Below, in pieces: positions 5,655 to 28,724 of a DNA stretch of 32,000 bases. The translations under genes and the position numbers were made by a program. The notes below the pieces were generated by a model. That model did no database searches and was not told the DNA's origin. It saw only the letters and a list, made by a program, of their open reading frames with translations. Numbering within the stretch: the first letter of the stretch is position 1; every line of letters starts with the position of its first letter. Source of the DNA: Methanothermobacter thermautotrophicus str. Delta H (GTDB lineage Archaea > Methanobacteriota > Methanobacteria > Methanobacteriales > Methanothermobacteraceae). The stretch spans positions 630,001 to 662,000 of the forward strand of contig NC_000916.1 in assembly GCF_000008645.1 (NCBI RefSeq), given 5' to 3'.

Positions 5655-5700
5655 AGTGAAAAAAGACCTACCAAATATTCAATTTTCCAAAAAAAGAAAT
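5655..5700 (-). terminator. Oligo-T tracts after the CobN-like ORF
   Basis: On the minus strand there is a T7 run (plus-strand A-run 5689-5695) 10 nt after stop TAA 5705-5707, and a T6 run (5659-5664). Confidence 0.5.
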
Positions 5701-5704
5701 GTGG

Positions 5705-8700: not shown

Positions 8701-11068
8701 AATTCTTGAGAGCCGCAACTATCTTATCCAATACTGATATGGCCACATTTGTCTTGTTTTCCGGCAATAAGGATATTATACCATCGTACCAGGAGTCTAT
8801 ACGATCTCCCATACCAGTTGTATAATTCAATCCTACCGCCCTTTTGCATAATTCTCCAATATATCCAACAGGCCCCTCTATAACTTGGATCTTTGTGATC
8901 TCGTCAAGCTTAGAGAACCATTCCATGTACTTGTCCACTGGATAGAGTATTGCATTTTTAGCAAGTTTTTCAAGTTCTCCAGGAGCCCATGGGGCGACAT
9001 TAATACCCTTCTGGATTATCATATCATGGAGTATTGTTGTATTGGCTGGTATGTTCTCTACAGTGTACCCATTATCTTTGAGGATGTTAAGGAGATTATA
9101 GATGCTTGTTATAACGTCAAGGTAGCTTGAACCGATATTATCCTTTCCTGGCGGATAATTATAGTAGATTAACGCCACTTTTTTCTCATTGTTCGACAAT
9201 CTTTTCAGTTTAACCCAACCTTTTATCTCATCGGCAAGATGCTCAATATTCGCAGGTATTATCTCGTAGAGACTATAAGATAATCCAGTATCAGGGTCTG
9301 TGATCGGTTCAGAGTTCGTGGCCACAATTGTCGAATCTATAATCCCCTGGGATTCTGAAACGGCTATGTGCCACCATCTGTCACCTGTAAGTTGCCTTAA
9401 TCCTAGGGTGCTGAGATCCCACTGCTCCGCAAGAAGATAATCAGAATGTAAAGCCTTAAATACTGGTACATTTATGAGTTCAAAGAATTTTGTAACATTC
9501 GTGAAAAGATCACCGCCCAAACCATAGGCTGGCATGCTCACTATAGCATCAACATAAACCTTATACTTGGATGGGTTTGCGAAGAAGCTTTCAACGTCGG
9601 GTGCATCAGTGAATGATTCCACCATAACCTTTAATTGTTCGGGCGTGGCCCCATATGCCACTACTGGTATAACATTAAATCCTCTAGCCTCTAATGCATC
9701 GATAATAGCATAGTATGGTTGTAGTTTTTGATTGTCCACGTACATTTTACTTTCAAGGAGCCCTATACAACCCGTGGCGTTCGCCCTGAAGTATTTATTG
9801 ATGTATTCTGTAAGGTTATACCATCCGTGACGGTAAATCCCATATGGTTTTTCGCCGCTGGTTGCCCATATTGGAGGTTTCCAGTATCCAGTGTTTGGAA
9901 CCCCAATAAGATTGAGGGCCCAGACGATCTGGTTTACAAACGCATTATTATTATTGATGTCTTTGTAGAGTACCGCCATGTTGTACTCTAGTGAGAATAT
10001 GCCAGTAATATTAGATGATGAGATGTAATTTAACACGTGTTCGAAATTGGCGCCTTTTTTGGTATTTTGATAGTAGTCTATTAGGAGCTCATCTTGTATG
10101 TTGGAGAGGATGTATTCTCCTTTGATGTTTGAGTATCTCATGAGACTTGTATATGCTGGATTATAGACTATTGCAGGTTCTAGTATGAGGAATATGCCAC
10201 CTGTTTTGTTAGTTATTCCTGGGTTTGTTGAGAGCAGTTTTTGTAGGCGTTGAGATGCGCTGTCACTTAAGTATTCTCCAAGAAATATGTCACAGGCTGA
10301 TAGGACTTGCAGGAGTTCGTTATCTGACATCTTGGTTAACTGTTCACAGCTTCTGATCTGTATCTGGACCTTTTCCCTTACAGGGGCGTATCCAAGAACG
10401 TTTGCATCATGAACTGCCTCGTTAATAACTATCGTTTGTCCTTCATCACTTATAATAAATACTAGAACGTTACCACTTTTCTTAACGGTGCAGAATCTGT
10501 TAAATTTATTATTTGTTTTATTGATTTCCTGGATGTGGTTTTCTGGGTCTATTATGAGTTGTAGTGTGTGGGAGCCCACAGTCATTGGAGTCCAATTAAA
10601 CACTACCGTAGTTGTCTCACCACTCCTAAGTAATGGGATGGTATAACTACCAACCCTCACACCATTATCAACAAAATCAACCCTAACCCCACTAGCATTG
10701 GCCGGACCAATATTCGATATCCTCGCAGTGAATGTGTATGTCTCATTAACTATAAGATCAGCAACTAATTCCGTACTTTTGCATATAAGATCGGGAAGAG
10801 CCTGATTAACTGTCACATTCAATATTATCCTATTGTTTGTCTCATTGGTCTCCTGGATGTGGTTTTCTGGGTCTATTATGAGTTGTAGTGTGTGGGAGCC
10901 CACAGTCATTGGAGTCCAATTAAACACTACCGTAGTTGTCTCACCACTCCTAAGTAATGGGATGGTATAACTACCAACCCTCACACCATTATCAACAAAA
11001 TCAACCCTAACCCCACTAGTATCTTGATTACCTGCATTTCCAACCAGCGCGGTGACATTATATGTCAA
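5705..11068 (-). CDS. Giant CobN/Mg-chelatase-H-family protein with two N-terminal CARDB-like repeats, a Ser/Gly/Thr-rich linker and a C-terminal TM anchor. The frame continues upstream through an in-frame TAG into ORF 11135-12088.
   Basis: A 5364-nt open frame. CobN-family signatures are present (HLGRHATYEWLPGKE, AKRRGSAVIIDHLTPP, QYLAVYAYL). Residues 1-190 carry two copies of GVRVDFVDNGVRVGSYTIPLLRSGETTTVVFNWTPMTVGSHTLQLIIDPENHIQE. The C-terminus is GISFYAIMGVLILVVLMAIGYFRASRKEY. The track start is TTG with no SD and no signal peptide, and the first ATG is codon 54. Confidence 0.85.
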   Translation of the reverse strand: MTYNVTALVGNAGNQDTSGVRVDFVDNGVRVGSYTIPLLRSGETTTVVFNWTPMTVGSHTLQLIIDPENHIQETNETNNRIILNVTVNQALPDLICKSTELVADLIVNETYTFTARISNIGPANASGVRVDFVDNGVRVGSYTIPLLRSGETTTVVFNWTPMTVGSHTLQLIIDPENHIQEINKTNNKFNRFCTVKKSGNVLVFIISDEGQTIVINEAVHDANVLGYAPVREKVQIQIRSCEQLTKMSDNELLQVLSACDIFLGEYLSDSASQRLQKLLSTNPGITNKTGGIFLILEPAIVYNPAYTSLMRYSNIKGEYILSNIQDELLIDYYQNTKKGANFEHVLNYISSSNITGIFSLEYNMAVLYKDINNNNAFVNQIVWALNLIGVPNTGYWKPPIWATSGEKPYGIYRHGWYNLTEYINKYFRANATGCIGLLESKMYVDNQKLQPYYAIIDALEARGFNVIPVVAYGATPEQLKVMVESFTDAPDVESFFANPSKYKVYVDAIVSMPAYGLGGDLFTNVTKFFELINVPVFKALHSDYLLAEQWDLSTLGLRQLTGDRWWHIAVSESQGIIDSTIVATNSEPITDPDTGLSYSLYEIIPANIEHLADEIKGWVKLKRLSNNEKKVALIYYNYPPGKDNIGSSYLDVITSIYNLLNILKDNGYTVENIPANTTILHDMIIQKGINVAPWAPGELEKLAKNAILYPVDKYMEWFSKLDEITKIQVIEGPVGYIGELCKRAVGLNYTTGMGDRIDSWYDGIISLLPENKTNVAISVLDKIVAALKNYILTGDQRYYNEFLGYKRQFFALNISGLSGWGQPPGDIMTVEKNGTKYFVIPGMWFGNIFICPEPQRGWEGDINKLYHSMVVAPPHQYLAVYAYLQENTDAMVHLGRHATYEWLPGKEVLLASSDFPKVVTGATPQIYYYIVDGLAEGIQAKRRGSAVIIDHLTPPLTFTALYGGYASLATLVGQYDGADNSTKTEIISKIRKTIQDNNLTQLIEMAMGVSLNKLYGDKLVQTIEDYLGQVQDTLYPHGLHAIGKNWTEEEVAMLVSSILSVPFQVSTTEETTLQDEVALLFYRKSYGNLTSIQKEKVQENCIGIVKSVITNGVNATLNNLTSMPTAGLKKALELAREYAMKVYESMDAEVEALLDALNCGYIPPGAGNDLVSNPDALPTGRNFFQDQAAEIPTRSSFEYGKSLALLTLQNLNATVEKIAVGIFCTETARDDAALVSMVLALLGMEPDWSDSPSAGVGGAKLKEMPKYVELKDLVRPEGWEKKRIDVVIITTGLFRDLYSRQAGLLDKAFRVALARSYYTILDDTRLKQKYGDKIEKALNYVVGPVGFYGIGDESLDYNYVAKHWVEDFEYYMSLNMTPEIAGEYAISKIFAPPENDYGAGISKSIQLSWTWDDRMELADFYLNRMGNIYSSTQWGSSNPLVFKRALNGVKTVFTSRNTNLYGVLDNDDFFDYWGGLSVAIERVNGEAPTMYVLSYGNRGSPRALTLESFMSLEATTRYFNPEWIRAMMQSDPTGRYISRKFISNLIAWTILRDSYTHDEVFSSTFYSNLWQTAYNVYLQDSLQTGVTDWLSSGNRAYAMISITGTMLNVIYMGYWKTDETITRNIANRWAKMIAEHGVACCDCSCGNLAMIEWAMQYVNPDLIEKVKAKIYAATKNANFAPAEDHGEGGESGSTPRTQEGTGTGSAGSSARDSSVRSAGTTASLDEVGLQRGTGEPGKAGEGKSYEITRRGSQGFSSTGISFYAIMGVLILVVLMAIGYFRASRKEY
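10528..11019. repeat. Intragenic tandem repeat, period 324 nt, containing a 168-nt perfect copy
   Basis: By direct comparison, 10528-10695 is identical to 10852-11019. The repeat encodes the two CARDB-like units of the CobN-like ORF. Confidence 0.9.
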
Positions 11069-11137
11069 TCCTTTATAGAATGTTCCATCGAGCTTGGATT
11101 GTGTCCATAGCTCTGGTTCTCTACTGACCGGTGCCTA
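11069..11137 (-). other. In-frame TAG stop plus a 22-codon stop-free linker joining ORF 11135-12088 to ORF 5705-11068
   Basis: 12088-11068 = 1020, which is divisible by 3. My manual translation reads LALLEARY, then TAG, then APVSREPELWTQSKLDGTFYKG, then L(TTG)TYNVTAL. Confidence 0.9.
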
Positions 11138-12088
11138 ATACCTTGCCTCAAGTAAGGCAAGTATAATCTTATAAAAGCCTTTTCCACCATAACCACCCGT
11201 TAATGCACCATCATATGTTAAAAGGTTCTCTCCAGTAGGATTGAATTGAGCAGTGACATTCCATTTATTTAATCCGCTGTAATCTCCAGTTAACTGATTA
11301 CCGGAAAGCCTCCTCCCATTAAAGGTATATGTGCCATCAACACTGCTCGCATGAATTACAGTCGCTGTGACATTTTTAATATCACCTATGATATTCGATC
11401 CAAAAATGGTTCTCCCAATATAATTTTCTCCAGTATTATCCGTGTAGTAATAGTTGTCCACATCATGGCCCATATTGACCCAGTAGGCGACAGTATCAGT
11501 GCTTCCAGGGATGTCATAGGCTACTACAAGTGTTATAACCTTTATGCGACCATCTGTAGTACAATTAAATGTGGTCACATTAGCCCAGTTTCTAACTCCC
11601 GTAATATTGGTTACATCATACCATAGGAGATAGTCACTTGTAACCCGCACAATATGATCATTTATTTGAGTATACTGAGAAGCTTCCTCATTATTCTCAG
11701 GATAAACATATTGGGAAGATAGGTGTGTGCTCTCTAGAAGATGCCCATTATATGTGATATTCACGTTAAGCGGATAATCCACTTGCATATGTCCTTGGTA
11801 TACAAGTACATGAAGTTGTGCCCATGAAACACTTGCATTAGCAGGCAAATCCCTAAAAGTATATACTACCGTGGAATTACCGGGTTTATTCATACTATAA
11901 TCTGCCGATCCGTTGGTGCCAAAATAGGTATCAACATAAAGCCCGCCACTTACAGTCCCATTTTTGACTGTTTCAAGTTTTAAACCTCCACACCATGGAT
12001 CAGCATAAGCTGACGAAGTTAATGAAAATATTACAACTGTTAGAATGATTACACCCAACAGCTTATGAAATTTCTCCATCAGAACCAA
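11135..12088 (-). CDS. Secreted leader protein: signal peptide plus a beta-rich domain of about 290 aa (possibly DUF3344-like). It is probably the N-terminal part of the CobN-like gene.
   Basis: Signal peptide KLLGVIILTVVIFSLTSSAYA. Clear paralogue of the N-terminal 300 aa of ORF 17672-19012 (RVTSDYLLWYDVTN, DGRIK.ITL.VAY.IPGST, YW.N.GHDV, YKIILA). Many N-x-S/T sequons. ATG 12079 (MEKFHK) is a likelier start than TTG 12088. The ORF ends at TAG. Confidence 0.8.
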   Translation of the reverse strand: MVLMEKFHKLLGVIILTVVIFSLTSSAYADPWCGGLKLETVKNGTVSGGLYVDTYFGTNGSADYSMNKPGNSTVVYTFRDLPANASVSWAQLHVLVYQGHMQVDYPLNVNITYNGHLLESTHLSSQYVYPENNEEASQYTQINDHIVRVTSDYLLWYDVTNITGVRNWANVTTFNCTTDGRIKVITLVVAYDIPGSTDTVAYWVNMGHDVDNYYYTDNTGENYIGRTIFGSNIIGDIKNVTATVIHASSVDGTYTFNGRRLSGNQLTGDYSGLNKWNVTAQFNPTGENLLTYDGALTGGYGGKGFYKIILALLEARY

Positions 12089-12250
12089 CCTTCTTTGATC
12101 ATTTCTATCACTTTATTGTAAATTCATTGTTTATATATTTTACCAAAAAAGTATTACTAATTATGAGGAGTATAAAAATAGTATCATAAAAAGTCGTAGT
12201 GTGTTACTATACATTGTGTAGAAGAAAAACAAGTAATACCATGGGAGCCT

Positions 12251-12277
12251 TTCTAACAAAAAAATAAAAAGGGGGGC
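12251..12277 (-). terminator. Oligo-T terminator after the 1755-codon ORF
   Basis: The minus strand reads TAA agcccccc ttttt a ttttttt (plus-strand A-runs at 12258-12264 and 12266-12270). Confidence 0.55.
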
Positions 12278-15200
12278 TTATATTGTGACGTAGTTTGGCA
12301 GTCGCTTATTGGTTCCGTAGAATTTTATGATTTTGCTGTACATGTAAACCAGACGTTGGAATGGTATTCTTCCAAGGCCAGTGATGGCGTAATTTGGTGC
12401 GCGGCCACGACTATCTATGAATGAAAGGATATTCTTTGCAACCTTCACATAACTTGACCTGTAAATTCTGCCATGTCTGTACCATCCACTAGAAGCTGTC
12501 GGACTTGCAACACTCTTCACAGAAATCAGAGCTAGGTTACCAGCATTTATATTGACTGTTGCCTTGCAAAGCAAGTAAAGGAACTGTGCCATACTTTGCT
12601 GCTGCCCATTAATCGCCACCTTACTTGGCAATCTACCATAACGCTCATAATAAGCTCTAACCCAAGAAGCAGCATCAATGATCTGTCCAACGCTAATACC
12701 CGGACTCCTAACACTCACAAACGCTGTCAAATTATTTATTGCCACAGGATAATTACCCGCTGAAGTCAGAGTATAATTGAAGCTCACAACTCCCACACCA
12801 CCAGCAGGGACCGCTATAGTCTTTGTAGCTACCGTCTGACCATTCACCTTAAATTGTGCTGTGTAATTTCCGGCCAAGTCACCAGTGTTTCTCAAGTTAG
12901 CTGTCACCGTAATGTTCAGTGGTGCCACACCACTCTTTGGAGTCACCGTAAGGTTTCCTACTGTTATATTAGCAGGTTTTAACACTGTCACAGCCACTGG
13001 GGCCAGATCATCTATTGTCACATTGTAAACTCCAGCAGTCAACACCCTACTAAACTCCACACTCACAGTCTGCCCAGCAGGGACCGCTATAGTCTTTGTA
13101 GCTACCGTCTGACCATTCACCTTAAGTTGCGCTGTGTAATTCCCTGCCACATCACCACTGTTCGTCAAATTAGCAGACACCGTAATATTCAATGGCGCCA
13201 CACCACTCGTTGGAATCACCGTAAGGTTTTCGAGTGTGAATTGTGGGCCTTGGTAGACTGTTATGTAGTTTTCTTTTGTTAGTGTGTTTTCTCCTCCGGG
13301 TCCTTTTATTATGAGTGTTACTGTGTAGGTTCCTGGTTGTGTGTAGGTGTAGGTTGGGTTTTGTTCTGTGCTATCTATTATAGTGTCGTTGTTGAAGTCC
13401 CAGTACCATTCTGTAGCTTCAGTTGAAAGGTCGGTGAACTGGACTGTTAGTGGTGCGATTCCTTCAGTTGCATTGGCTGTGAAGTTGGCCATTGGTGGTT
13501 CGTATTCTAGTATTAGGATTGCTTGGAGGGCTACCATGTTGTCTCCATGGCTTCCGTTGTTGTAGCTTTGTATTTTTGCGGTGTTTGTCCCGTTTTGTAG
13601 GGTTTCTTTTATTTGGTAGGTGCTGAATCCTATTTGCGGTCCTGTTAGGTAGTCTTGCCAGAATCCTGTGTATTCTTGGTTGTTGAAGTAGAATTTGCTT
13701 TTGTTGGCTTCGTTTGCAGAGGCTGTTATGACTATTGTCTTGGCTTCTTTTAGCATGTTTGTGTTTATGTCGTTGAAGATTGCGTGGGCTGTTGCCTCGG
13801 TATCGTTTACTCCGTAGTCTGTTCTGCTGTAGAGCATGTCTGTTTCTTCGTTTATCCAGATTTTCTTGATAGTTTCGTTTTCGTGTTCATAGATTATGAG
13901 AATGTATGAACCGTAAAGTGCTGTTGTTGTGTTAGTTCCAGCTGTTAGGGTTAGTGTGTTGTTTTCACTCGGCCTGAATAGGCTTGTTACATTATATACT
14001 AGTAGTCCGCTTGGGTAATTGCTTGATCCGTAACCTTTGGTGTCGTTGTAGTGTGCCAGTGGATTTATGGTTACGTTGTTGAATGTTGCGATGAAGTCTG
14101 GGATTCCCCCTACAGTGTTCCATGTGTATGGTTGGTATAATCTAGCCTCTTTTATTGTGGCTCCTTCTGGTATTGGTAGGTCTGCTGGGGTCCATATGAC
14201 GATGTAGGGGTTTTGCCAGTTTCCTGATCCTGATCCACGGTATGTTGAATTGCCTGGTGAATATAATAGTTTTAGGCGTCCTTCTAATGCTAGTACAGTG
14301 TTTATGTCGCTTCCATTCGTGTACTGCTTGCCCTTGTAGCCGTTGTAGTAGATGGTAGCAGTTGTATTGTAAATGTTGTTGGTTTCGTTGGTTTCTTCAA
14401 CTTCATCATCACTGTCCACTATGACGTTAATGGTTATGGGTCCTGTTAGTGGTGTGAAATCATTAAATGTTACATTGGCGGTTGCACCTGCAGCTAATCC
14501 TTGTAGTATCTTTGTATTATTATATTCGCCTACTATGAGTTTCACTTTGAATTGGCCGGCGTCAAGGTTTCCTTCATTATATATTGTTACTTGGATCGTG
14601 TTGGGTTCATTTGCGAATAGTTCACGGTGTCCAGCCGCATTATTTGGATTATATGTGATGTTAGTGACTTTAAGATCTCTCTGTAAGGATACAGTAGTGT
14701 TTGCTACGTTGTTGTTGATGTTAGCATCCCTTATATTCGTATTTCTGAGATAGTGCATATCCGTGTATGTTATGTTTGCGATGATTATATAATCTCCAAG
14801 TGTCAGGTTCAGGTTTTGTGTGATCGTCCTTGATTCTCCTGGTTGTAAGGCTGGGATTTCATGGATAAATTCTTGACTGTCACATGTTATATTCACCGGG
14901 AATGTTGCATCCGGGTCTATTTTTGTGATGTCTGCTTTACCATTGTTCTTAACCCTTACCTGTATACTATTACTTGTTGCTGTGATGTTTTCAATTAGTA
15001 GATCTGCTATGAGTGGTTTTTGGTCTCCCTGGTATGGTGTATCCCCAATTCCATCTCCGTCAAGGTCGTCTCCTGTGTAATCCGACCAATAATTACCTCC
15101 GCCAGTGGTGTTCCAATTGTTGTTGCTTGGATTTCCCTCTGTCTGGTTTGTATTGTTTATGAAGTAATTATCGTATATCATGTTTCCTGTACTGGCCCCT

Positions 15201-17545
15201 GTTCCGGTGCCTGTCAGTCTAATACCCTTTGAGTTTTCTTTGATGATGTTGCCTATGATGGTATGGTTACTTCCACCAGTCACATAGAGTCCATAGTTGC
15301 ATCCCGTGACATTGTTTCCTGTTATCGTGCATCTTTGGGCGTTGAATGGCCATATTCCATAGTTGCAGTTTGTTACTATGTTGTCTTGTACTGTGTCGCC
15401 ATTTAGTGGCACGATGCCGTATCCTTGTTTGTTTGTCCCTATTGCTGTGTTGGCTATTATTGTATTGTTTCCTCCGCCTTCAACGCGGATTCCACTTTTA
15501 TCCGCCACGTAGACTGTGTTGTTGGCTATGAAGTTATTGTTGCCAGATATGTATATAACTGATCTGACTGTGCCTGGGTTTACTATATTATCTGTTACGA
15601 TGTTGTTTGCACCATATACGAGTAATCCACCAGAGGTGATGTTATTGTATGCTATTGTATTGTTTCCGTCTCCAGATACGTATATACCATAGGTGCTGCC
15701 TTGAACGTTATTGTATTGTATCGTGCTCGTTACACCATTGTAAAGGTATATGGCGTTGCTAGAGTTCATTATGGTGTTATTTTCTATTATGAGATTGTTG
15801 TTTTGTTTGTATGCGATTATAGCATTTGCTTGTGTGTTTGTTATGGTACTGGTTTTTATTGTGATGCCAGTGGAGTTCCAGAGGTATATTCCATGTCTAT
15901 TATTGAGGATTGTTGTGTTTTGGATTGTGCAATCGCTTGAAGTGACTATTAGTATTCCTTGACTGTTATTGGATACTGTGATATCCTTTATTGTGACATT
16001 TGTTCCATTGATTATGGCGAGGAATCCTACTGTTTCATTGATTGTCCTGTTTTGGACGTTCTTCAAGTAATATACAGGGTTCCCATTTATAGTGTTGCTC
16101 GTGTCTATCTCCTGATTGAATTTTGAACCATCTGTTGATACTGTGTCAAAAACTCCAAAGTTTAACAGGTTATCTTGTAGTCTGTTATTGTGGAGTTGGC
16201 AGCCTTCAGAATCTTTAATGTAGATTCCATAGTAGTTGTTGATGACTGTGTTGTTGATAAGTGTGCATCTGTACTGTGTATCAATGTTGATGCCTTTACC
16301 ATTTGTACCATTAGCGCCTTGGATTGTGAAACCCTCAATCCTTGTATCATTTGCTTTCACATCAATAACGGTTCCAGTTGACGTAGATGCTATGATATTC
16401 ACAAGACCATTGGCCTTTAATGTTAAAGGCTTATTTAAGACTATGTTTTCTGTGTAGTTGCCTTCACCTACGAGTATTGTATGTCCAGCTACTGTACTAT
16501 TATCGTTTATAGCATCCTGGATTCTATCAAACGTTCTGTTTGTGTCAAGGTTCATGACCTTCGCCACTGTTATGCAGTTTTCTTTTGTTAGTGTGTTTTC
16601 TCCTCCTGGTCCTTTAACGGTAAGTGTTACTGTGTAGGTTCCCGGTTGTGTGTAGGTGTAGGTTGGGTTCTGTTCTCTGCTATCTATTATAGTGTCGTTG
16701 TTGAAGTCCCAGTACCATTCTGTAGCTTCAGTTGAAAGGTCGGTGAACTGAACTGTTAATGGGGCAACACCCATTGTGGGACTTGCTGTGAAGTTAGCTG
16801 CCAGTGACTCAACATATTCAACCATTAATATTTGTAGGATTGCGCCCATCCCACCACTGCTCGTGCCTTGTATCCTTGCCCTGTTTTCTGTGCTGTTTAA
16901 TTTGCCTGTGACATTGAATATCTCGGGGTATGATGTTTTGCTGTTTCCTTGCCACACGTTCAATCCTAAAGTCTCATTGTTGAAGTACACGTTTCCTTCA
17001 TTTGGTCCGGCATGTGTTACCCATGTCATATAGGTTGCATTTGAAACTTTCTCCACGTCAGGTATTCCGGGGAAGTTGACATATGCAATGCATTCTTCAG
17101 GTTGCACGCTAAAGTTTGGGTCAAGGAGTAGAATGTCATATTCTTCGTTTATGTATATACCAGTGGGTGGTCTTGATGTGTCGTTGTAGATCACTAGGAG
17201 TGTGAATGGGAACATGCTAAGTGTATGTGTTTGTTGAGATGCCGGTACTGTTAAGTTTACAAAGACTGCATTATCTTGGTTTTTTAGGTAGTATTCTGTC
17301 ACATCATAGACTAGTAATCCATATTTATAGTGCGGGTAGCCTCCAAAATTTGATTGATCCCAGTACCATCTTGTATAATTCCCTGGTTGGAATGTAGCAT
17401 TATTGAAGTGTATTGTAAGGTATGTTGTTGCGGCCCCATCAGCAGGGTTTGTGCCCTTGTTATCCCAGTTGTATGGGACGTAGAGGTAAACTTTGACTGG
17501 TGTGGCATTTTCTGGTATGCTAAGTTGCGTTCCATTAAAAATCAC
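12278..17545 (-). CDS. Giant adhesin-like / S-layer-related surface protein. Domain order: D-domain, PKD, right-handed beta-helix (NosD/CASH-like), CARDB-like x2, second D-domain, PKD, CARDB-like x2, then C-terminal pseudomurein-binding repeats. The frame continues upstream through an in-frame TAA into ORF 17672-19012.
   Basis: A 5268-nt open frame. PKD signature VAPLTVQFTDLS...WDFNNDT...NPTYTYTQPGTYTVTL occurs twice. Long runs of about 22-aa N/G/I/T-rich beta-helix turns end in NYWSDYTGDDLDGDGIGDTPY. The C-terminal repeats (AASWVRAYYERYGRLP, SSYVKVAKNILSFIDSRGRAPNY, FQRLVYMYSKIIKFYGTNKRLPNY) match the pseudomurein-binding repeat family as I recall it. The track start is GTG with no SD and no signal peptide, and the first ATG is near codon 111. 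Confidence 0.85.
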   Translation of the reverse strand: MIFNGTQLSIPENATPVKVYLYVPYNWDNKGTNPADGAATTYLTIHFNNATFQPGNYTRWYWDQSNFGGYPHYKYGLLVYDVTEYYLKNQDNAVFVNLTVPASQQTHTLSMFPFTLLVIYNDTSRPPTGIYINEEYDILLLDPNFSVQPEECIAYVNFPGIPDVEKVSNATYMTWVTHAGPNEGNVYFNNETLGLNVWQGNSKTSYPEIFNVTGKLNSTENRARIQGTSSGGMGAILQILMVEYVESLAANFTASPTMGVAPLTVQFTDLSTEATEWYWDFNNDTIIDSREQNPTYTYTQPGTYTVTLTVKGPGGENTLTKENCITVAKVMNLDTNRTFDRIQDAINDNSTVAGHTILVGEGNYTENIVLNKPLTLKANGLVNIIASTSTGTVIDVKANDTRIEGFTIQGANGTNGKGINIDTQYRCTLINNTVINNYYGIYIKDSEGCQLHNNRLQDNLLNFGVFDTVSTDGSKFNQEIDTSNTINGNPVYYLKNVQNRTINETVGFLAIINGTNVTIKDITVSNNSQGILIVTSSDCTIQNTTILNNRHGIYLWNSTGITIKTSTITNTQANAIIAYKQNNNLIIENNTIMNSSNAIYLYNGVTSTIQYNNVQGSTYGIYVSGDGNNTIAYNNITSGGLLVYGANNIVTDNIVNPGTVRSVIYISGNNNFIANNTVYVADKSGIRVEGGGNNTIIANTAIGTNKQGYGIVPLNGDTVQDNIVTNCNYGIWPFNAQRCTITGNNVTGCNYGLYVTGGSNHTIIGNIIKENSKGIRLTGTGTGASTGNMIYDNYFINNTNQTEGNPSNNNWNTTGGGNYWSDYTGDDLDGDGIGDTPYQGDQKPLIADLLIENITATSNSIQVRVKNNGKADITKIDPDATFPVNITCDSQEFIHEIPALQPGESRTITQNLNLTLGDYIIIANITYTDMHYLRNTNIRDANINNNVANTTVSLQRDLKVTNITYNPNNAAGHRELFANEPNTIQVTIYNEGNLDAGQFKVKLIVGEYNNTKILQGLAAGATANVTFNDFTPLTGPITINVIVDSDDEVEETNETNNIYNTTATIYYNGYKGKQYTNGSDINTVLALEGRLKLLYSPGNSTYRGSGSGNWQNPYIVIWTPADLPIPEGATIKEARLYQPYTWNTVGGIPDFIATFNNVTINPLAHYNDTKGYGSSNYPSGLLVYNVTSLFRPSENNTLTLTAGTNTTTALYGSYILIIYEHENETIKKIWINEETDMLYSRTDYGVNDTEATAHAIFNDINTNMLKEAKTIVITASANEANKSKFYFNNQEYTGFWQDYLTGPQIGFSTYQIKETLQNGTNTAKIQSYNNGSHGDNMVALQAILILEYEPPMANFTANATEGIAPLTVQFTDLSTEATEWYWDFNNDTIIDSTEQNPTYTYTQPGTYTVTLIIKGPGGENTLTKENYITVYQGPQFTLENLTVIPTSGVAPLNITVSANLTNSGDVAGNYTAQLKVNGQTVATKTIAVPAGQTVSVEFSRVLTAGVYNVTIDDLAPVAVTVLKPANITVGNLTVTPKSGVAPLNITVTANLRNTGDLAGNYTAQFKVNGQTVATKTIAVPAGGVGVVSFNYTLTSAGNYPVAINNLTAFVSVRSPGISVGQIIDAASWVRAYYERYGRLPSKVAINGQQQSMAQFLYLLCKATVNINAGNLALISVKSVASPTASSGWYRHGRIYRSSYVKVAKNILSFIDSRGRAPNYAITGLGRIPFQRLVYMYSKIIKFYGTNKRLPNYVTI
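12715..13245. repeat. Intragenic tandem repeat, period 273 nt (two CARDB-like units)
   Basis: The 50-nt core cagcagggaccgctatagtctttgtagctaccgtctgaccattcacctta is identical at 12802-12851 and 13075-13124. The flanks are similar (protein GVAPLNITV.ANL.N.GD.AGNYTAQ.KVNGQTVATKTIAVPAG). Confidence 0.85.
13261..13490. repeat. PKD-module repeat, copy 2 (dispersed intragenic, 3309 nt from copy 1)
   Basis: About 230 nt nearly identical to 16570-16800. The offset is 3309 = 3 x 1103, so the frame is preserved. Confidence 0.85.
16570..16800. repeat. PKD-module repeat, copy 1
   Basis: See 13261-13490. An example shared stretch is gtgtaggtgtaggttgggtt...tatagtgtcgttgttgaagtcccagtaccattctgtagcttcagttgaaaggtcggtgaact. 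Confidence 0.85.
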
Positions 17546-17674
17546 AGTGTAGTTTGACCAGCCTTCGGTTCCAGCCCTATATGTTGTATCTGGTTGCGCA
17601 TAATATGCTAGACCATAACGGCCATAGTATGTTTCTACCGTATTAATGTCTGAGCCATTGTAGGCCCATCTTTA
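17546..17674 (-). other. In-frame TAA stop plus a 42-codon stop-free linker joining ORF 17672-19012 to ORF 12278-17545
   Basis: 19012-17545 = 1467, which is divisible by 3. My manual translation reads VPVLYNGYKG, then TAA, then RWAYNGSDINTVETYYGRYGLAYYAQPDTTYRAGTEGWSNYT, then V(GTG)IFNGTQL. Confidence 0.9.
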
Positions 17675-19012
17675 ACCCTTGTATCCATTATATAGAACTG
17701 GAACTGTCCTCGTCTTTTCGTTGTTTGCTTCATTGGTTTCTGGCACTTCATTGTATGGGTCTATCACGAACCTGTAGGTCACATTTTGGTTATTGTTACT
17801 GTAGAGTGTTTCCGTCGTGGCAGATCTTATCGTAGGATCCGTTATATTCACATATACTGTTCCACTAGGATTAATGGGGGGTATAATAGAGGTTGCCACT
17901 AGTTCGTCGTTAGCATATAATGCCAGTATGGTCGCTGGTGATGCGCCACTACCATTATTTTTAATCTGGCACCTCATTGTATTATTTTCCAATACAAATG
18001 CTGCACCACCATTAAATGTGACTGTCTGTAGTGTTAGGTCTATGTTTGGTGTGTAGGTGACTTTTTGGACTGCAAGTATTATCTTATAGTAGCCCCCTAG
18101 TCCTGTTCCTGGGCTTTTGTGGTATGTGAATTTGTTGGTTCCGTTATTGTAGATGTTTGTGACATTCCATATTTCGTATCCACTGTAGCTTCCACGTCTT
18201 TGGTATGTGCCATTTGGCAGGTTCTGGTCATTGTATGTGTAAATTCCATCACTGCTCGCTGCATGCACTATCATCACACTCGCATTTGCAGGGTTGGGCA
18301 CAGCACCGTTGAAGTAGGTTTCTCCTGTGTAATCTTCATCGTTGTAGCTACTCACGTCATGTCCCCAATTGATCCAATATCTTGTCGCGGTTGTGCTTCC
18401 TGGGATGTTGTAGGCCACGATTAGTGTTATGAGTTTTATGCGGCCGTCGTAGGATCCGATAGTGCATACGTTGGCTGTGTTGTTCATGTCCTTCTTTGTC
18501 ATGTTTGTTACATCATACCATAGTAGGTAGTCGCTTGTGACGCGCATTGTATGGTTGTTTATCATCAGGTAGGGGTCGTTGTCATGTCCCTCGCCTAGAA
18601 GCCAAGTGTTATTGTTTCCCTCTGGGGGGTAGATGTATGTTGTGTAGAGTGTTTGGTTTTCTAATGAGTTGCCATTGTAGGTTACGTTTACATATGTTTG
18701 CCTGGCTTCTTGCATGTGGCCTGAGTATACGAGGACGTACAGTGTTGCATTTTTGATCTGAGCATTTGATGGTATTGTGTAGTTGAAAGTGTATGTGATG
18801 TTAGCGTTTCCTCCTGTATTGTTGCCAACACCCTCTGGATCTGTGAAACCATAATATGAGTCAACGTTTACATCGCCTGTTACTGTACCATTCTGGAGCG
18901 TATCTAATGGTTTGCCACCAACATAACTGTCTGCATAGGAATACCCGTTTAAAACTAGGATAACACTGATTATCAGCAAAATGTAAACACTACTCTTCAA
19001 CGTAGAATTCAA
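17672..19012 (-). CDS. Secreted leader protein: signal peptide, D-domain (paralogue of 11135-12088) and one CARDB-like domain. It is probably the N-terminal part of the giant adhesin gene.
   Basis: TTG start at 19012 lies 8 nt after the strong SD aggaggtg (reverse complement of 19021-19028). Signal peptide VYILLIISVILVLNGYSYA. I count 20 N-x-S/T sequons in 446 aa by hand. The CARDB-like tail ends in EVPETNEANN. The ORF ends at TAA. Confidence 0.8.
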   Translation of the reverse strand: MNSTLKSSVYILLIISVILVLNGYSYADSYVGGKPLDTLQNGTVTGDVNVDSYYGFTDPEGVGNNTGGNANITYTFNYTIPSNAQIKNATLYVLVYSGHMQEARQTYVNVTYNGNSLENQTLYTTYIYPPEGNNNTWLLGEGHDNDPYLMINNHTMRVTSDYLLWYDVTNMTKKDMNNTANVCTIGSYDGRIKLITLIVAYNIPGSTTATRYWINWGHDVSSYNDEDYTGETYFNGAVPNPANASVMIVHAASSDGIYTYNDQNLPNGTYQRRGSYSGYEIWNVTNIYNNGTNKFTYHKSPGTGLGGYYKIILAVQKVTYTPNIDLTLQTVTFNGGAAFVLENNTMRCQIKNNGSGASPATILALYANDELVATSIIPPINPSGTVYVNITDPTIRSATTETLYSNNNQNVTYRFVIDPYNEVPETNEANNEKTRTVPVLYNGYKG

Positions 19013-19130
19013 TATTTTTCACCTCCTATTAATAACTGGTCTCTTATTGCTATTTTATTATATAAAAATTAATATGTATTACATTTTATAGTAAATTATA
19101 TATTATAGTATTACATATGTTGATACAAAT
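19013..19130 (-). promoter_or_regulatory. SD plus a very AT-rich promoter region for the 17672-19012 / 12278-17545 transcription unit
   Basis: SD aggaggtg is present. Several TATA-like tracts (attttattatataaaaattaatat, tatatattatagta) lie 40-110 nt upstream. I cannot place the exact TATA box. Confidence 0.4.
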
Positions 19131-19220
19131 ATTCAATGTCGGAGAGTAATCAAGCGCAGCTGGTAAAAAACTCGTATGAGCACATGCTCAGAAAACTAAA
19201 AGGTTACCAAACAAACCAAA

Positions 19221-19484
19221 GAACTGCTTCATAAAAAAGATATAACCCCTGGATGAAATTCTTATATGATGATAAGGTCAAAGTACGCCTTCCTCCAGAG
19301 GCTCACAAGGGACCTCAAAAATGAAATCAATAAGTATAGGAGAGGAACTGGAGGGAGCAACACCCCCATCGGTCTTCATAGGTAGCTGGAATTACCCTAA
19401 GGTTTATGCGGGTCCCATGATAGCCCCTGTACAGGAGGAAATGGAAATATTTGACTCCCCCGAGCGATGGATACCAGAGAGAAA
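19221..19484 (+). pseudogene. Truncated duplicate of the nre promoter plus its first 55 or so codons (nre-prime)
   Basis: It aligns to 21546-21812 with 7 substitutions and one extra A (my manual alignment). It includes the TATA-like aaaaaagatataa (19233-19245). Homology to nre stops at about 19484. Confidence 0.85.
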
Positions 19485-19690
19485 CATTGCAGCAGCCTGG
19501 TTAATTAACTCGCTGGCCTCGTTTATAATGAGCCCGGAGTGAACGAAGTGATCATCATAGAACCCTATTGATCTCAAGTAGGTCCCGGCGACCCTAACTA
19601 TCAAAATTGTGAAGATCAGCAAAAAAACCCGGACCCAGGATTTCACCTGATATGTTCCTGAACACTCTGCTGAGGAGCTATATAACCAAA
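19482..19690 (-). pseudogene. Degraded 3' fragment of gene X (X-prime)
   Basis: It aligns to 4941-5166. The first 77 nt have 4 mismatches, followed by a 12-nt deletion and more diverged patches. It lacks the last 4 codons and stop of X and the whole 5' third, SD and promoter. Confidence 0.8.
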
Positions 19691-19707
19691 AAAATATTAA
19701 AAAAGGT
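19685..19707 (-). terminator. Oligo-T terminator after the 574-aa gene
   Basis: The minus strand reads TAA accttttttaatattttttt (plus-strand A-runs at 19688-19694 and 19699-19704). It is homologous to the terminator at 12251-12277. Confidence 0.5.
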
Positions 19708-21432
19708 TTAGATTGTGACGTAGTTTGGCAGTCGCTTATTGGTTCCGTAGAATTTTATGATTTTACTGTACATGTAAACGAGGCGCTGGAAGGGTATTCT
19801 TCCAAGGCCAGTGATGGCGTAATTTGGTGCGCGGCCACGACTATCTATGAATGAAAGGATATTCTTTGCAACCCTCACATAACTTGACCTGTAAAGTCTG
19901 CCATGTCTGTACCATCCACCAGAAGCTGGCGCACTTGCAACACTCTTCACAGAAATCGGAGCCACGTTACCAGCATTTATATTGACTGTTGCCCTGCAAA
20001 GCAGGTAGAGGAACTGCGCCATACTATACCCATGTCCACTGATTGTCACTTTACCTGGCAATCTACCATAACGCCCATAATAAGCTCTAACCCAAGAAGC
20101 AGCATCAGTGAGCTGCCTAACACTAATTTTAACACTCGCAAAGGCTGTCAGATTATTTATTGCCAGGGTATAATTACCCGCTGAAGTCAAGGTGTAATTG
20201 AAACTCACAACCACCACACCACCAGCAGGAACCTCCACCGTCTTTGTAGCTACTCTCCGACCATTCACTATAAGTCCAGCTGTATAATTCCCTGGTAAGT
20301 CGCCAGTATTTGTCAAATCAGCAGACACTTTAATGTTCAGTGGCGCCACTCCACTCGTTGGAGTCACCTTAAGGTTCCCTGCTGTTATGTTGATCTTTTT
20401 GATGTTGTTACTGGTGTTAGCGTCTCTTATGGTTGTAGTTTCCAGGTAGTGTGTTGTTTCGTTGTATAGTATTGTTGTTATGATTTGATAGTTTCCTCCT
20501 GGGACGATATTCAGTGTGATTGTCTGTGTTCCTCCGCCTGGTAGGGGGTCTATGTCTCGTGTGAATTCTTGGCTGTTATATTGTACTGTGATCGGGACTT
20601 GTGCGTTCGGATCTATCCTTGTTATATCTGCTTTCCCATTATTTTTAACCCTTACCTGTATACCGCCGCTTGTGCTGATATTTTCAATCATTAAGTCAAC
20701 GATTAATGGTTTCTGATCCAAATTGTATGGTGTGTCACCTATACCATCACCATCAAGATCGTCTCCAGCATAATCTGACCAGTAATTACCCACTTCTGTC
20801 CCATTCCAATAATTGCCACTTAAATCTCCTGCTGTCTGGTTTGTGTTGTTAATGAAATAATTCCCAACAATAGTATTGTTACCTGATCCAAATAGGAAGA
20901 TTCCGTAGCTGTTGTTGGTGATGGTATTGTTACAGATGGTGTTATTACCTGATTCAAATAGGTAGATTCCCCATTGGTTGTTGGTGATGGTATTGTTACA
21001 AATAGTATTATTATCTGATCCAAGTAGGTAGATTCCCTCCTCGCCGTTGCTGGTGATGACATTGTTACAGATAGTGTTGTTGGATCCAGATAGGTAGATT
21101 CCGGGTTTGCCACCTGTTATTGTGAATCCTTTGACCTGTGTGTTGTTGGCTGTGACATTGAATACTGGCATGGTAGTATTGCCTGCGGATACAGTTACTG
21201 TTCCGTTAGCCTCTAATGTTAGAGTTTTGTTAACGAGCACATTTTCATTGTAGGTTCCTGAATTGACGATTAAATGATGTCCATCTGTACTGTTATCTAT
21301 GGCTTCCTGGATTGTGCTGAATTCTTCAGTTGTATTTAAGTTAACAACTGTTGCTGATACCCCATTTACAAGCAAGAACGCCACTGCTAAAACTAGCAGT
21401 AAAAATGAGATCCTCGACATTATTTTCACCAA
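19708..21432 (-). CDS. Surface protein: signal peptide, short beta-helix (NosD-like), CARDB-like x2, then C-terminal pseudomurein-binding repeats. A mini paralogue of 12278-17545.
   Basis: Signal peptide ISFLLLVLAVAFLLVNGVSA. Beta-helix turns (NNTICNNVITSN and similar), NYWSDYAGDDLDGDGIGDTPY, and a C-terminal 130 aa nearly identical to the giant ORF. ATG 21420 (MSRISF) after ggtga is likelier than TTG 21432. Confidence 0.85.
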   Translation of the reverse strand: MVKIMSRISFLLLVLAVAFLLVNGVSATVVNLNTTEEFSTIQEAIDNSTDGHHLIVNSGTYNENVLVNKTLTLEANGTVTVSAGNTTMPVFNVTANNTQVKGFTITGGKPGIYLSGSNNTICNNVITSNGEEGIYLLGSDNNTICNNTITNNQWGIYLFESGNNTICNNTITNNSYGIFLFGSGNNTIVGNYFINNTNQTAGDLSGNYWNGTEVGNYWSDYAGDDLDGDGIGDTPYNLDQKPLIVDLMIENISTSGGIQVRVKNNGKADITRIDPNAQVPITVQYNSQEFTRDIDPLPGGGTQTITLNIVPGGNYQIITTILYNETTHYLETTTIRDANTSNNIKKINITAGNLKVTPTSGVAPLNIKVSADLTNTGDLPGNYTAGLIVNGRRVATKTVEVPAGGVVVVSFNYTLTSAGNYTLAINNLTAFASVKISVRQLTDAASWVRAYYGRYGRLPGKVTISGHGYSMAQFLYLLCRATVNINAGNVAPISVKSVASAPASGGWYRHGRLYRSSYVRVAKNILSFIDSRGRAPNYAITGLGRIPFQRLVYMYSKIIKFYGTNKRLPNYVTI

Positions 21433-21555
21433 CTAATTATATTATTAAATCATTATTTAACATTACCCTAAACCAAAAAAAATAGCATCATCTTAACGGC
21501 GAATAAAAAAAACATATAAAAAGATTTGAAGTGGGACAATTAGAAGAACTGCTTC

Positions 21556-21570
21556 ATAAAAAAGATATAA
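21556..21570 (+). promoter_or_regulatory. TATA-like box for nre; the spacing suggests a leaderless mRNA
   Basis: The sequence ataaaaaagatataa is centred about 25 nt upstream of ATG 21591. The same element is duplicated at 19231-19245. Confidence 0.45.
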
Positions 21571-21590
21571 CCCCTGGATGAAATTCTTAT

Positions 21591-22757
21591 ATGATGATAA
21601 GATCAAAGTACGCCTTCCTCCAGAAGCTCACAAGGGACCTCAAAATGAAATCAATAAACATAGGAGAGGAACTGGAGGGAGCAACACCCCCATCGGTCTT
21701 CATAGGTAGCTGGAATTACCCTAAGGTTTATGCGGGCCCCATGATAGCCCCTGTACAGGAGGAAGTGGAAATATTTGACTCCCCCGAGCGATGGATACCA
21801 GAAAGAAAGACACAGGAGGAGATCATAGACTACCGTCTCAACCTTGTAAGGGGAAAACAGCTGGTGGGCGTCCGCGACCTGGACAATCACCTCGTGGAAA
21901 AACTCCAGGAGATATCCCTCTCATCAGGGGCCATTGAAAGCGAGGCCCAGTTCAGAAGGAAACCGCGAGGACTCTTTTTCAGCGAAGAACAGACGCCCCA
22001 CGGTCCCAGCGCAGTTCTTGAGAACTTTGAGATAGAAAACGTGAAATGGGACCGTGAACTTGAGAGGGCCTACCATGACACTGACCTCAGGGCACGGGAG
22101 GCCATAGTCGAGCTCCACAGGAAGGGCACCCCCTTCTCGGCTGTACAGAAGGCACTCTCAGTCGGTGCCCTCGGCGAAGGGAAAAGGAGAAAACTTGTAC
22201 CGACAAGGTGGTCAATAACAGCCTGTGACAGTACCCTCGCCGACCACTTCCTCGAAAGGGTCCTTGAATATGAGCCCATAGACACCTTCAGGGTCCATGA
22301 GTTTGAGAGCCTCAAAAACCATTACCTGATACTCCTGACACCCTCAGAGTGGCAGTATGAATGGATGGAGGCCTTCATGAAGAGGGACGGTCGTGCAATG
22401 ATATTCTCAGACCATGAGACCGGTAAGGGTAAGAGGGAATATTCAAGGGTGGGTGGCTGCTACTACAGCGCCAAGATGGCTGTCCTCGATGCCCTGGACC
22501 GGGAGGAAAAACAGGCCGGGGCAATCATCCTGAGGGAGGCCTACCCTGGCTACGTGCCCCTCGGAGTATTCAATGTGAGGGAGAACGTGAAAAATGCCAT
22601 GGATACAGAACCCACCATGTTCAATGACCTGAGGGGTGCACTTGAATTCATTGACAGTAAGCTTAAACTTGGACTTGAGGCCTTCAGGGTGAGGAGCAAC
22701 CTCCTGAAGGAACTTGAAGTATCCAGACAGACAACCCTTGACTCGTTCTTCAGGTGA
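21591..22757 (+). CDS. nre: Archaeal Nre-family protein (putative DNA-repair protein)
   Basis: N-terminal signature [25 protein letters not shown] and C-terminal [10 protein letters not shown] are typical of the archaeal Nre family as I recall it. The alternative start is ATG 21648 (MKSINIG). Confidence 0.75.
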
Positions 22758-28109: not shown

Positions 28110-28724
28110 TCATCCTACGGGTCTCCAGAATTCCGGGTCTGCAAATCCTGGCTCCCTCCTTCTACTGGATGATAGTTCCCTGAGGATCTCCTCTACATCA
28201 TCATATCCCCTCTCTGTGAACCTGCTAATATGGTACTCAATCTTTGAGGGGGATGGTGCATCCCTGAGTATTATGTTGGTGCCCTCGTGGCCCCCATGGA
28301 TCTCCAGATCCGCAGAGTCAAGGAGCCTCTCTGTTATGCTCTGTGAGAAGGATACGTCCACTATCTTCCTGTGGTTTATGTAGTATCTCCTCTTCCATAG
28401 GACCCCCTCCTCAACCATGACCCTCTGGTCGGTGATTATGTAGCGCCTGTTCCTCCAGGAGATCACATCCCAGAGGATGGAGAGGAGGATTATGATTATT
28501 ATGCCTGTAAGAAGCCATGCGACCTTCTCAGCTACTGTGACACCATAATTTGCAATCAGGAGATTGTCAAGTGCCCCGGCTCCCTCAACTATCCACTGGA
28601 AGAGGTATAGTATTATCACGGCTGACAGGGCCTTTATTATGGTTGATTTTGAGTTGAGGATGAACCGCGGCCTTGTCTCATATAAAATTCTCTCACCTGG
28701 ATGTAACCTGTCCCTGCCAAACAT
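28110..28724 (-). CDS. Membrane protein with a bacterial PH-like (bPH_2/YdbS-type) domain
   Basis: Two TM helices (IIKALSAVIILYLFQWIV and VAWLLTGIIIIILLSILWDVI) are followed by WRNRRYIITDQRVMVEEGVLWKRRYYINHRKIVDVSFSQSITERLLDSADLEI, the typical bPH_2 layout. Confidence 0.7.
   Translation of the reverse strand: MFGRDRLHPGERILYETRPRFILNSKSTIIKALSAVIILYLFQWIVEGAGALDNLLIANYGVTVAEKVAWLLTGIIIIILLSILWDVISWRNRRYIITDQRVMVEEGVLWKRRYYINHRKIVDVSFSQSITERLLDSADLEIHGGHEGTNIILRDAPSPSKIEYHISRFTERGYDDVEEILRELSSSRRREPGFADPEFWRPVG

What the first reader, a model, noticed from the sequence alone, without database searches (positions are those of the whole stretch)
17540..17680. Only an in-frame TAA separates the 446-aa secreted ORF from the 1755-codon adhesin-like ORF
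My manual translation reads TRTVPVLYNGYKG, then TAA (17674-17672), then RWAYNGSDINTVETYYGRYGLAYYAQPDTTYRAGTEGWSNYT, then V(GTG 17545)IFNGTQL. The interval 17546-17671 is 42 stop-free codons, and 19012-17545 = 1467 is a multiple of 3. Inside the same giant ORF, the paralogous CARDB-to-D-domain junction reads YYNGYKG-K-QYTNGSDINTV. The TAA therefore occupies the position of a Lys codon in a conserved linker. The fused frame 19012-12278 spans 2245 codons including both stops.
Basis: seen in the sequence. Interest (0 to 1): 0.75.

Follow-up and report, generated by a model that had tools for sequence, protein, structure and literature searches.

The report
Spurious stop codon splits surface-protein gene
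The in-frame TAA is really in this record, but the re-sequenced genome of the same strain and every relative read AAA/AAG (lysine) there, so the two ORFs are one ordinary 2,244-residue cell-wall-anchored surface-protein gene and the stop is most likely a base-calling error in an old genome record.

Summary
On the minus strand, a single TAA (17674-17672) lies in frame between a 446-codon ORF and a 1755-codon ORF. The 42 stop-free codons between them encode the start of a DUF3344 domain.

The window is Methanothermobacter thermautotrophicus DeltaH; the neighbouring 574-aa ORF matches published MTH719. In the 2023 PacBio re-sequencing of the same strain (CP064324.1) the codon is AAA and the gene is one 2,244-aa ORF. 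A 99.7%-identical metagenome contig and six more distant orthologous loci (two of them the same contig) also read AAA or AAG.

Over 21.7 kb the window differs from CP064324 at 11 positions. At all 10 covered by a close relative, the relatives side with CP064324. That density (1 per 2 kb) matches the published count of 448 single-nucleotide and 247 indel-base differences between the new sequence and the 1997 record.

A second in-frame stop, TAG at 11137-11135, splits the neighbouring DUF3344-CARDB-CobN gene. It reads GAG in CP064324 and Glu in an orthologue.

Verdict: almost certainly a base-call error in the old record, or at most a nonsense mutation private to the stock sequenced in 1997. It is not readthrough and not a two-gene arrangement. 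Interest is low.

The parts
17672..17674 (-). In-frame TAA of the record. The true codon is most likely AAA (Lys); the coding-strand T at 17674 reads A elsewhere.
   Evidence: Searches show the TAA. It is AAA in CP064324.1 and in the 99.7%-identical contig L009. It is AAA or AAG in L001, L008 and L010-L013.
12278..19012 (-). The whole gene: a 2,244-residue secreted surface protein anchored to pseudomurein. Domain order is signal peptide, DUF3344, CARDB, DUF3344, PKD, NosD/beta-helix, CARDB repeats, DUF3344, PKD, further repeats and three PMBR motifs.
   Evidence: The translation has a single internal stop. It is called as one 2,244-aa gene in CP064324.1 and checked as one ORF reading ...YNGYKGKRWAYNGSD....
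17675..19012 (-). N-terminal 446 codons, the apparent separate ORF (probably MTH717). It has a TTG start and the signal peptide MNSTLKSSVYILLIISVILVLNGYSYA, followed by DUF3344 and CARDB.
   Evidence: DUF3344 at residues 29-318, CARDB at 325-435; for the start region.
19020..19026 (-). Shine-Dalgarno-like GGAGGTG, 7 nt upstream of the TTG start, preceded by a very AT-rich stretch. This is the only convincing translation start for the whole gene.
   Evidence: Read directly from the sequence.
17546..17671 (-). 42 stop-free codons that encode the first ~45 profile positions of the second DUF3344 domain. They lie outside the mechanically listed 1755-aa ORF.
   Evidence: DUF3344 profile positions 2-275 are matched when this stretch is included, and 46-275 when starting at the GTG. 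The stretch is conserved in all orthologues.
12278..17545 (-). The apparent 1755-aa ORF (probably MTH716). Its GTG 'start' is simply the first start-type codon after the spurious stop. It has no signal peptide and no SD at normal spacing, and it begins inside a domain.
   Evidence: upstream sequence read.

Best explanation
The window is the old (1997) genome record of Methanothermobacter thermautotrophicus DeltaH. The TAA at 17674-17672 is a single-base miscall of AAA: GGT-AAA-AGA was recorded as GGT-TAA-AGA.

The real gene is one 2,244-codon ORF. It is translated from the TTG at 19012, which sits behind a GGAGGTG ribosome-binding site. Its product is exported through an N-terminal signal peptide and held on the pseudomurein wall by three C-terminal PMB motifs. 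In between it displays DUF3344, CARDB, PKD and beta-helix modules.

No recoding, readthrough or reinitiation is needed. The 446-aa and 1755-aa 'genes' are an annotation artefact of that one wrong base.
For: **The window is strain DeltaH.**
- The 574-aa ORF at 19708-21432 has its PMB domain at residues 432-574 and Trp at 447 and 507. This is exactly as published for MTH719 (PMC3124540).
- The window is 99.949% identical over 21.7 kb to CP064324.1, the re-sequenced DeltaH genome.

**Re-sequencing of the same strain shows no stop.**
- CP064324.1 reads AAA at the site and carries a single called gene of 2,244 aa.

**Relatives show no stop.**
- L009, 99.7% identical over 7 kb, has AAA and an open frame of at least 2,184 codons.
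- L001, L008 and L010-L013 (74-84% DNA identity) have AAA or AAG. P0001 and P0002 are continuous across the junction.

**The pattern of differences looks like record errors.**
- The window differs from CP064324 by 9 substitutions and 2 one-base deletions in 21.7 kb.
- At each of the 10 positions where a close relative (L002-L007, L009) could be matched, it agrees with CP064324. The eleventh, 11137, is covered only by CP064324 and by the protein alignment with L013.
- No difference is private to CP064324.
- The density of 1 per 2 kb matches the genome-wide 448 single-nucleotide plus 247 indel-base differences reported between the new sequence and NC_000916.1 (PMC10579436 Table 1). That is far too many for divergence between laboratory stocks (inference).
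- 8 of the 9 substitutions replace a base with a copy of its neighbour; 5 would be expected, P about 0.03.

**The downstream ORF could not work alone.**
- It starts at DUF3344 profile position 46 of 275.
- It has no signal peptide and no ribosome-binding site.
Against: - Two of the nine substitutions create in-frame stops, and both fall in giant surface-protein genes (17674 and 11137). Only 4.2% of random substitutions in these ORFs create a stop, so P(at least 2 of 9) is about 0.05. This leaves some room for real inactivating mutations in the stock sequenced in 1997.
- At 16822 the window's G (Val) matches the distant orthologues L001 and P0001. It is therefore not a state unique to the window.
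- The original traces and the original stock cannot be examined here.
- I infer that the window is the 1997 record from its identity to CP064324, the difference density and the MTH719 match. No accession confirms it.
Confidence: 0.85

Rival explanations
1. The TAA is a real nonsense mutation (AAA to TAA) private to the DeltaH culture sequenced in 1997. The neighbouring TAG at 11137 would be a second one. Together they would truncate two adjacent giant surface proteins, perhaps through laboratory selection against costly or aggregating wall proteins. The DSMZ-derived stock re-sequenced later would have kept the intact genes.
For: Two of the three differences inside the surface-protein island create stops, against a 4.2% chance per random substitution. 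Both hit the same type of gene. The island is dispensable, since other strains of the species lack it.
Against: The other nine differences in the same 21.7 kb have the same one-sided pattern. They include two single-G deletions 10 bp apart that frameshift a conserved bPH_2 gene. About 700 such differences genome-wide cannot be real stock divergence, so the prior that any one of them is an error is high. The TAA substitution has the neighbour-copy form (T-AAAA read as TT-AAA) typical of a miscall.
Confidence: 0.12
2. Programmed stop-codon readthrough or recoding: the TAA is decoded at some frequency, giving both a 446-aa secreted protein and a 2,244-aa anchored protein.
For: The frame stays open and homologous across the stop.
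Against: - The stop is not conserved. The same strain and all eight independent sequences found have Lys codons.
- There is no unusual RNA structure downstream (z = -1.2; 22 of 200 shuffles fold as well).
- No tRNA gene lies in the window.
- From general knowledge, not tested here: TAA followed by A is an efficient terminator context, and no UAA suppression is known in Methanobacteriales.
Confidence: 0.01
3. Two genuine genes: the 446-aa protein terminates at the TAA, and the 1755-aa protein is initiated independently at GTG 17545.
For: The mechanical ORF list gives these two ORFs. Stand-alone DUF3344 proteins appear to exist, but the local example is itself split by a spurious stop.
Against: The GTG lies at DUF3344 profile position 46 of 275. 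It has no signal peptide despite extracellular domains and a wall anchor, and no SD at normal spacing. The same strain re-sequenced has one ORF.
Confidence: 0.01

Closest known systems
The 2,244-aa DUF3344/CARDB/PKD/NosD/PMBR gene of M. thermautotrophicus DeltaH in CP064324.1 (L014 12409-19143)
   Same: Same strain, same locus, and identical over 6,735 nt except two bases, 17674 and 16822.
   Different: CP064324.1 has AAA (Lys) where the window has TAA, and CTT (Leu) where the window has GTT (Val). It is annotated as one gene rather than two.
MTH719, the PMB-domain surface (S-layer-like) protein of M. thermautotrophicus (PMC3124540)
   Same: It is the neighbouring gene in the window (19708-21432). 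It shares the NosD/beta-helix module. Its C-terminal three-motif pseudomurein-binding domain is 87% identical over 139 residues to that of the giant ORF. Binding of the MTH719 domain to pseudomurein was shown experimentally.
   Different: MTH719 is 574 aa and has no DUF3344 or PKD modules. Wall binding of the giant protein's own domain has not been tested.
DUF3344-domain multi-module surface proteins of methanogens (for example Methanothermobacter sp. KEPCO 2 P0002, and Methanosarcina 'chitin binding protein' P0003)
   Same: They share the DUF3344-CARDB-DUF3344-PKD module order. P0002 has the conserved linker YNGYKGK-R/Q-Y/W and is continuous across it.
   Different: Only 40-46% identity, and different C-terminal parts. 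P0002 has no PMBR among its precomputed Pfam hits.
Genes split by base-call errors in first-generation genome records
   Same: A single-base difference from a later re-sequencing of the same strain creates an in-frame stop. It occurs among many one-sided differences, at the published density for the old versus the new DeltaH sequence.
   Different: Nothing distinguishes this case except that two such stops fall in adjacent giant genes.

Membership tests
Programmed stop-codon readthrough / recoding site | The stop codon is conserved at the site in orthologues and in the same organism. | tested here: not met
   AAA in CP064324.1 and in L009. AAA or AAG in L001, L008 and L010-L013.
Programmed stop-codon readthrough / recoding site | A stimulatory downstream RNA structure or context. 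| tested here: not met
   Folding 126 nt from the stop gives z = -1.22, and 22 of 200 shuffles fold as well.
Programmed stop-codon readthrough / recoding site | A suppressor tRNA or dedicated decoding machinery for UAA. | not testable with these tools
   No tRNA gene lies in the 32-kb window. The rest of the genome is not available.
Pseudogene / gene fission by nonsense mutation | The ancestral state at the site is a sense codon and the frame is otherwise intact. | tested here: met
   Lys in all relatives. There is a single internal stop in 2245 codons.
Pseudogene / gene fission by nonsense mutation | The stop is reproducibly present in the organism's DNA on independent sequencing. | tested here: not met
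   The independent PacBio genome of strain DeltaH reads AAA.
Sequence-record (base-calling) error | Independent re-sequencing of the same strain disagrees at the base. | tested here: met
   Window T versus CP064324.1 A at 17674 on the coding strand.
Sequence-record (base-calling) error | It is part of a set of one-sided differences, private to the record, at the density known for that record. | tested here: met
   There are 11 differences in 21.7 kb. At all 10 covered by a close relative, the relatives side with CP064324. Genome-wide the published count is 448 single-nucleotide plus 247 indel-base differences. Caveat: at 16822 the window state equals that of distant orthologues.
Sequence-record (base-calling) error | The original traces or reads show an ambiguous or miscalled peak. 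| not testable with these tools
   Traces from the 1997 project are not available here.
Pseudomurein-anchored surface (adhesin-like) proteins of Methanobacteriales | An N-terminal signal peptide. | tested here: met
   MNSTLKSSVYILLIISVILVLNGYSYA/DSY was read from the translation. No dedicated predictor was run.
Pseudomurein-anchored surface (adhesin-like) proteins of Methanobacteriales | C-terminal PMB (PF09373) motifs, three being needed for wall binding. | tested here: met
   PMBR gives three stretches, E=3.9e-27. The domain is 87% identical to the experimentally characterised MTH719 PMB domain.
Pseudomurein-anchored surface (adhesin-like) proteins of Methanobacteriales | Actual binding to pseudomurein, or an adhesive function. 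| not testable with these tools
   This needs experiments. It has been shown only for the paralogous MTH719 domain (PMC3124540).

The most novel reading that the evidence does not exclude
The TAA at 17674 and the TAG at 11137 were truly present in the DeltaH culture sequenced in 1997. They would be parallel nonsense knock-outs of two adjacent giant wall-anchored surface proteins, fixed during laboratory propagation, while the stock re-sequenced in 2023 kept both genes intact. That would be a small example of domestication by loss of surface proteins in a model methanogen.
Probability: 0.1. Interest if true: 0.3.

Novelty: not a real feature. Interest (0 to 1): 0.04.

Why it matters
It matters mainly for annotation. 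In the old DeltaH record, the ORFs that are probably MTH716 and MTH717 should be read as one 2,244-aa surface protein. The ORFs that are probably MTH714 and MTH715 should likewise be read as one 2,124-aa DUF3344-CARDB-CobN protein. Anyone using the 1997 sequence for proteomics databases, domain censuses or pseudogene counts would otherwise count two truncated proteins, or a pseudogene, for each. The finding says nothing new about translation termination or recoding in archaea.

Tried and rejected
- **Exact-sequence look-ups that found nothing.** I tried the 446-aa ORF with an L or an M first residue, the 574-aa TTG-start form of MTH719 and the 317-aa ORF. The ATG-start form of MTH719 succeeded and led to CP064324.1. 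No self-hits appeared in the protein search either (best hit 81%), so the window's own record seems not to be in the collections.
- **Literature.** No paper in the library mentions MTH716 or MTH717. The supplements of Casini et al. 2023, which list old-versus-new gene mappings and proteomics, are not held. The shuttle-vector paper has no genome-comparison text.
- **Readthrough.** Rejected: the stop is not conserved, there is no downstream RNA structure and no tRNA gene in the window.
- **Reinitiation.** Rejected: the GTG at 17545 lies inside a domain. The only ATG next to the stop (17669-17667) is out of frame and opens an 8-codon ORF (read).
- **Look-up of the 186-aa GATase gene.** It was meant to extend the comparison with CP064324 to the left part of the window. 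It returned only metagenome contigs that break at the island, and I did not pursue it.
- **Decay downstream of the stop.** There are too few differences between the window and L009 (6 substitutions and one 3-bp indel) to test this.
Full report
**1. The observation**

On the minus strand the window reads ...ACA GTT CCA GTT CTA TAT AAT GGA TAC AAG GGT TAA AGA TGG GCC TAC AAT GGC.... The TAA occupies 17674-17672.

- Upstream lies a 446-codon ORF starting at TTG 19012.
- Downstream, 42 stop-free codons run to GTG 17545, the first start-type codon of the mechanically listed 1755-aa ORF.
- Translating 19012-12278 in one frame gives 2245 codons with only this internal stop and the terminal one.

Every coordinate and count in the finding is correct.

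**2. The interval is coding and the downstream ORF cannot stand alone**

Pfam assigns these domains:

- Upstream piece: DUF3344 (residues 29-318) and CARDB (325-435).
- Downstream piece: DUF3344, PKD, NosD/beta-helix, CARDB repeats, a third DUF3344, PKD and three PMBR motifs.

When the 42 codons are included, the second DUF3344 aligns from residue 4 after the stop (profile 2-275, E=1.3e-49). From the GTG, only profile positions 46-275 are covered. The GTG product would also lack a signal peptide and has no Shine-Dalgarno motif at normal spacing.

The upstream ORF, by contrast, has GGAGGTG 7 nt before its TTG, an AT-rich promoter-like leader and a typical signal peptide.

**3. Orthologues**

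A scan of species-representative genomes found one orthologue, L001 (MAG Methanobacteriaceae archaeon 41_258, 79% amino-acid identity). It reads TAC AAA GGC AAA AGA TGG GCC and has a continuous frame.

A degenerate junction pattern with NNN at the critical codon found six metagenome loci. One of them, L012, is the same 12,640-bp contig as L001 under another accession. All have AAA or AAG.

One of these, L009 (Ga0116168_1004686), is 99.7% identical to window 19526-12470. Within the coding region it differs by only seven substitutions (the stop-codon base among them) and a 3-bp indel, reads AAA at the site, and has an open frame of at least 2,184 codons.

Protein hits P0001 (81% identity) and P0002 (Methanothermobacter sp. 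KEPCO 2, 46%) cover 99% of a junction-spanning query.

**4. Identity of the window, and re-sequencing of the same strain**

The 574-aa ORF at 19708-21432 has NosD/beta-helix modules, three PMBR motifs from residue 432, and tryptophans at 447 and 507. This is exactly the published description of MTH719 of M. thermautotrophicus (PMC3124540).

An exact look-up of its ATG-start form returned one record: CP064324.1, the PacBio re-sequencing of strain DeltaH. There the locus carries one called gene of 2,244 aa (L014 12409-19143). Its translation has no internal stop and reads YNGYKGKRWAYNGSD at the junction.

The window and CP064324.1 are 99.949% identical over 21,713 bp. The base-by-base comparison shows nine substitutions and two single-base deletions in the window. 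One of the substitutions is 17674 (window T, CP064324 A).

**5. Why this is most likely an error in the record**

- For 10 of the 11 positions at least one close relative covers the site (L002-L007 are other assemblies with an identical Nre protein; L009 covers the island). Every one of them agrees with CP064324 and none with the window. Position 11137 is covered only by CP064324 and by an orthologue protein alignment.
- No difference is private to CP064324.
- The density, 1 per 2 kb, matches the genome-wide figures in Casini et al. 2023 Table 1: 448 single nucleotides and 247 indel bases between the new DeltaH sequence and NC_000916.1. About 700 one-sided differences are far too many to be real divergence between two stocks of one laboratory strain (inference). 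So the window is evidently the 1997 record, and the differences are overwhelmingly base-calling errors.
- The differences look like errors. Two missing Gs 10 bp apart frameshift a conserved bPH_2 gene: 204 aa in the window against 257 aa elsewhere.
- Substitutions are clustered, at 28239/28227/28195 and 24761/24755.
- Eight of nine substitutions replace a base with a copy of its neighbour (5 expected, P about 0.03). GGT-AAA-AGA recorded as GGT-TAA-AGA is of this kind.

**6. Caveats and the main rival**

Two of the nine substitutions create in-frame stops, and both are in giant surface-protein genes. Only 4.2% of random substitutions in these ORFs would create a stop, so P(at least 2 of 9) is roughly 0.05.

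At 16822 the window's GTT (Val) equals the state in the distant orthologue L001.

These points leave about a 10% chance that the stops were real in the culture sequenced in 1997, as stock-specific nonsense mutations that inactivate dispensable surface proteins. Other strains lack the whole island (see section 9).

Even then, the strain as held and re-sequenced today has an intact gene. The stop would be an ordinary inactivating mutation, not a recoding signal.

**7. Readthrough and reinitiation**

Both are rejected.

- The stop is not conserved.
- The 126 nt from the stop fold no better than shuffles (z = -1.22).
- There is no tRNA gene in the window.
- The only nearby ATG (17669-17667) is out of frame and opens an 8-codon ORF.
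- The GTG lies inside a domain.

**8. What the gene is**

It is a 2,244-residue secreted protein with modular beta-rich extracellular domains and a C-terminal three-motif pseudomurein-binding domain. That domain is 87% identical to the MTH719 domain, for which wall binding was shown experimentally.

It belongs to the familiar class of wall-anchored, adhesin-like surface proteins of Methanobacteriales. Its specific ligand or function is unknown, and I did not test it.

**9. Seen in passing**

- A second in-frame stop, TAG at 11137-11135, separates the 317-aa DUF3344 ORF from the 1787-aa CARDB-CobN ORF. CP064324 reads GAG and calls one 2,124-aa gene, and the orthologue L013 has Glu and a continuous ORF.
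- The 14.5-kb block at window 5018-19481 carries both giant genes. It is absent from other assemblies of the species and is bracketed by 77-bp direct repeats.
- A 266-bp copy of the Nre gene's 5' end lies next to the right-hand repeat.

**10. Verdict**

The reading that one gene is interrupted at a Lys codon is supported.

The best explanation is a base-call error in the 1997 DeltaH record (confidence about 0.85). Novelty: not a real feature. Interest is very low, apart from correcting the annotation.

Noticed in passing
window 11135-11137 (minus strand): A second in-frame stop of the same kind. TAG separates the 317-aa DUF3344 ORF (11135-12088) from the 1787-aa CARDB-CobN/Mg-chelatase ORF (5705-11068). 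The re-sequenced DeltaH genome reads GAG and has one 2,124-aa gene. Orthologue L013 has Glu (LEVRYEPPV) in a continuous 2,012-aa ORF.
   Followed up: yes
window 5018-19481; repeats at 4941-5017 and 19482-19558: The 14.5-kb block carrying both giant surface-protein genes is missing from other assemblies of the same species (L002-L005, which have an identical Nre protein). In those, only one NosD-PMBR gene (640 aa, or 361 aa in L002) lies between MsrB and Nre. In the window the block is bracketed by 77-bp direct repeats (95% identical, 14,541 bp apart). This is consistent with loss or gain by recombination between the repeats.
   Followed up: partly
window 19219-19484 and 21544-21808: A 266-bp direct repeat (about 97% identical). 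The 5' end and upstream region of the Nre gene is duplicated just downstream of MTH719 and abuts the right-hand 77-bp island repeat. CP064324 annotation calls a 73-aa Nre_N fragment there.
   Followed up: partly
window 28117 and 28127: The window lacks two single G bases, 10 bp apart, relative to CP064324 and, where alignable, the other strains. This truncates a bPH_2-domain gene to a 204-aa ORF (28110-28724), against 257-273 aa elsewhere. It looks like another error in the record.
   Followed up: partly
window 13257-13489 vs 16566-16798; 10507-10698 vs 10831-11022; 12244-12543 vs 19674-19973: Long internal and inter-gene DNA repeats. The two PKD modules of the giant gene are 89% identical, the two CARDB units of the CobN gene are 97% identical, and the PMB-domain ends of the giant gene and MTH719 are 91% identical. 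This suggests recent duplication or gene conversion. It probably also explains why metagenome contigs break inside this island.
   Followed up: no
window 16822: The one window-versus-CP064324 difference that is not unique to the window. The window's GTT (Val) matches the distant orthologues L001 and P0001, whereas CP064324 and L009 share CTT (Leu). This could be a chance coincidence with an error, or a genuine variant.
   Followed up: partly
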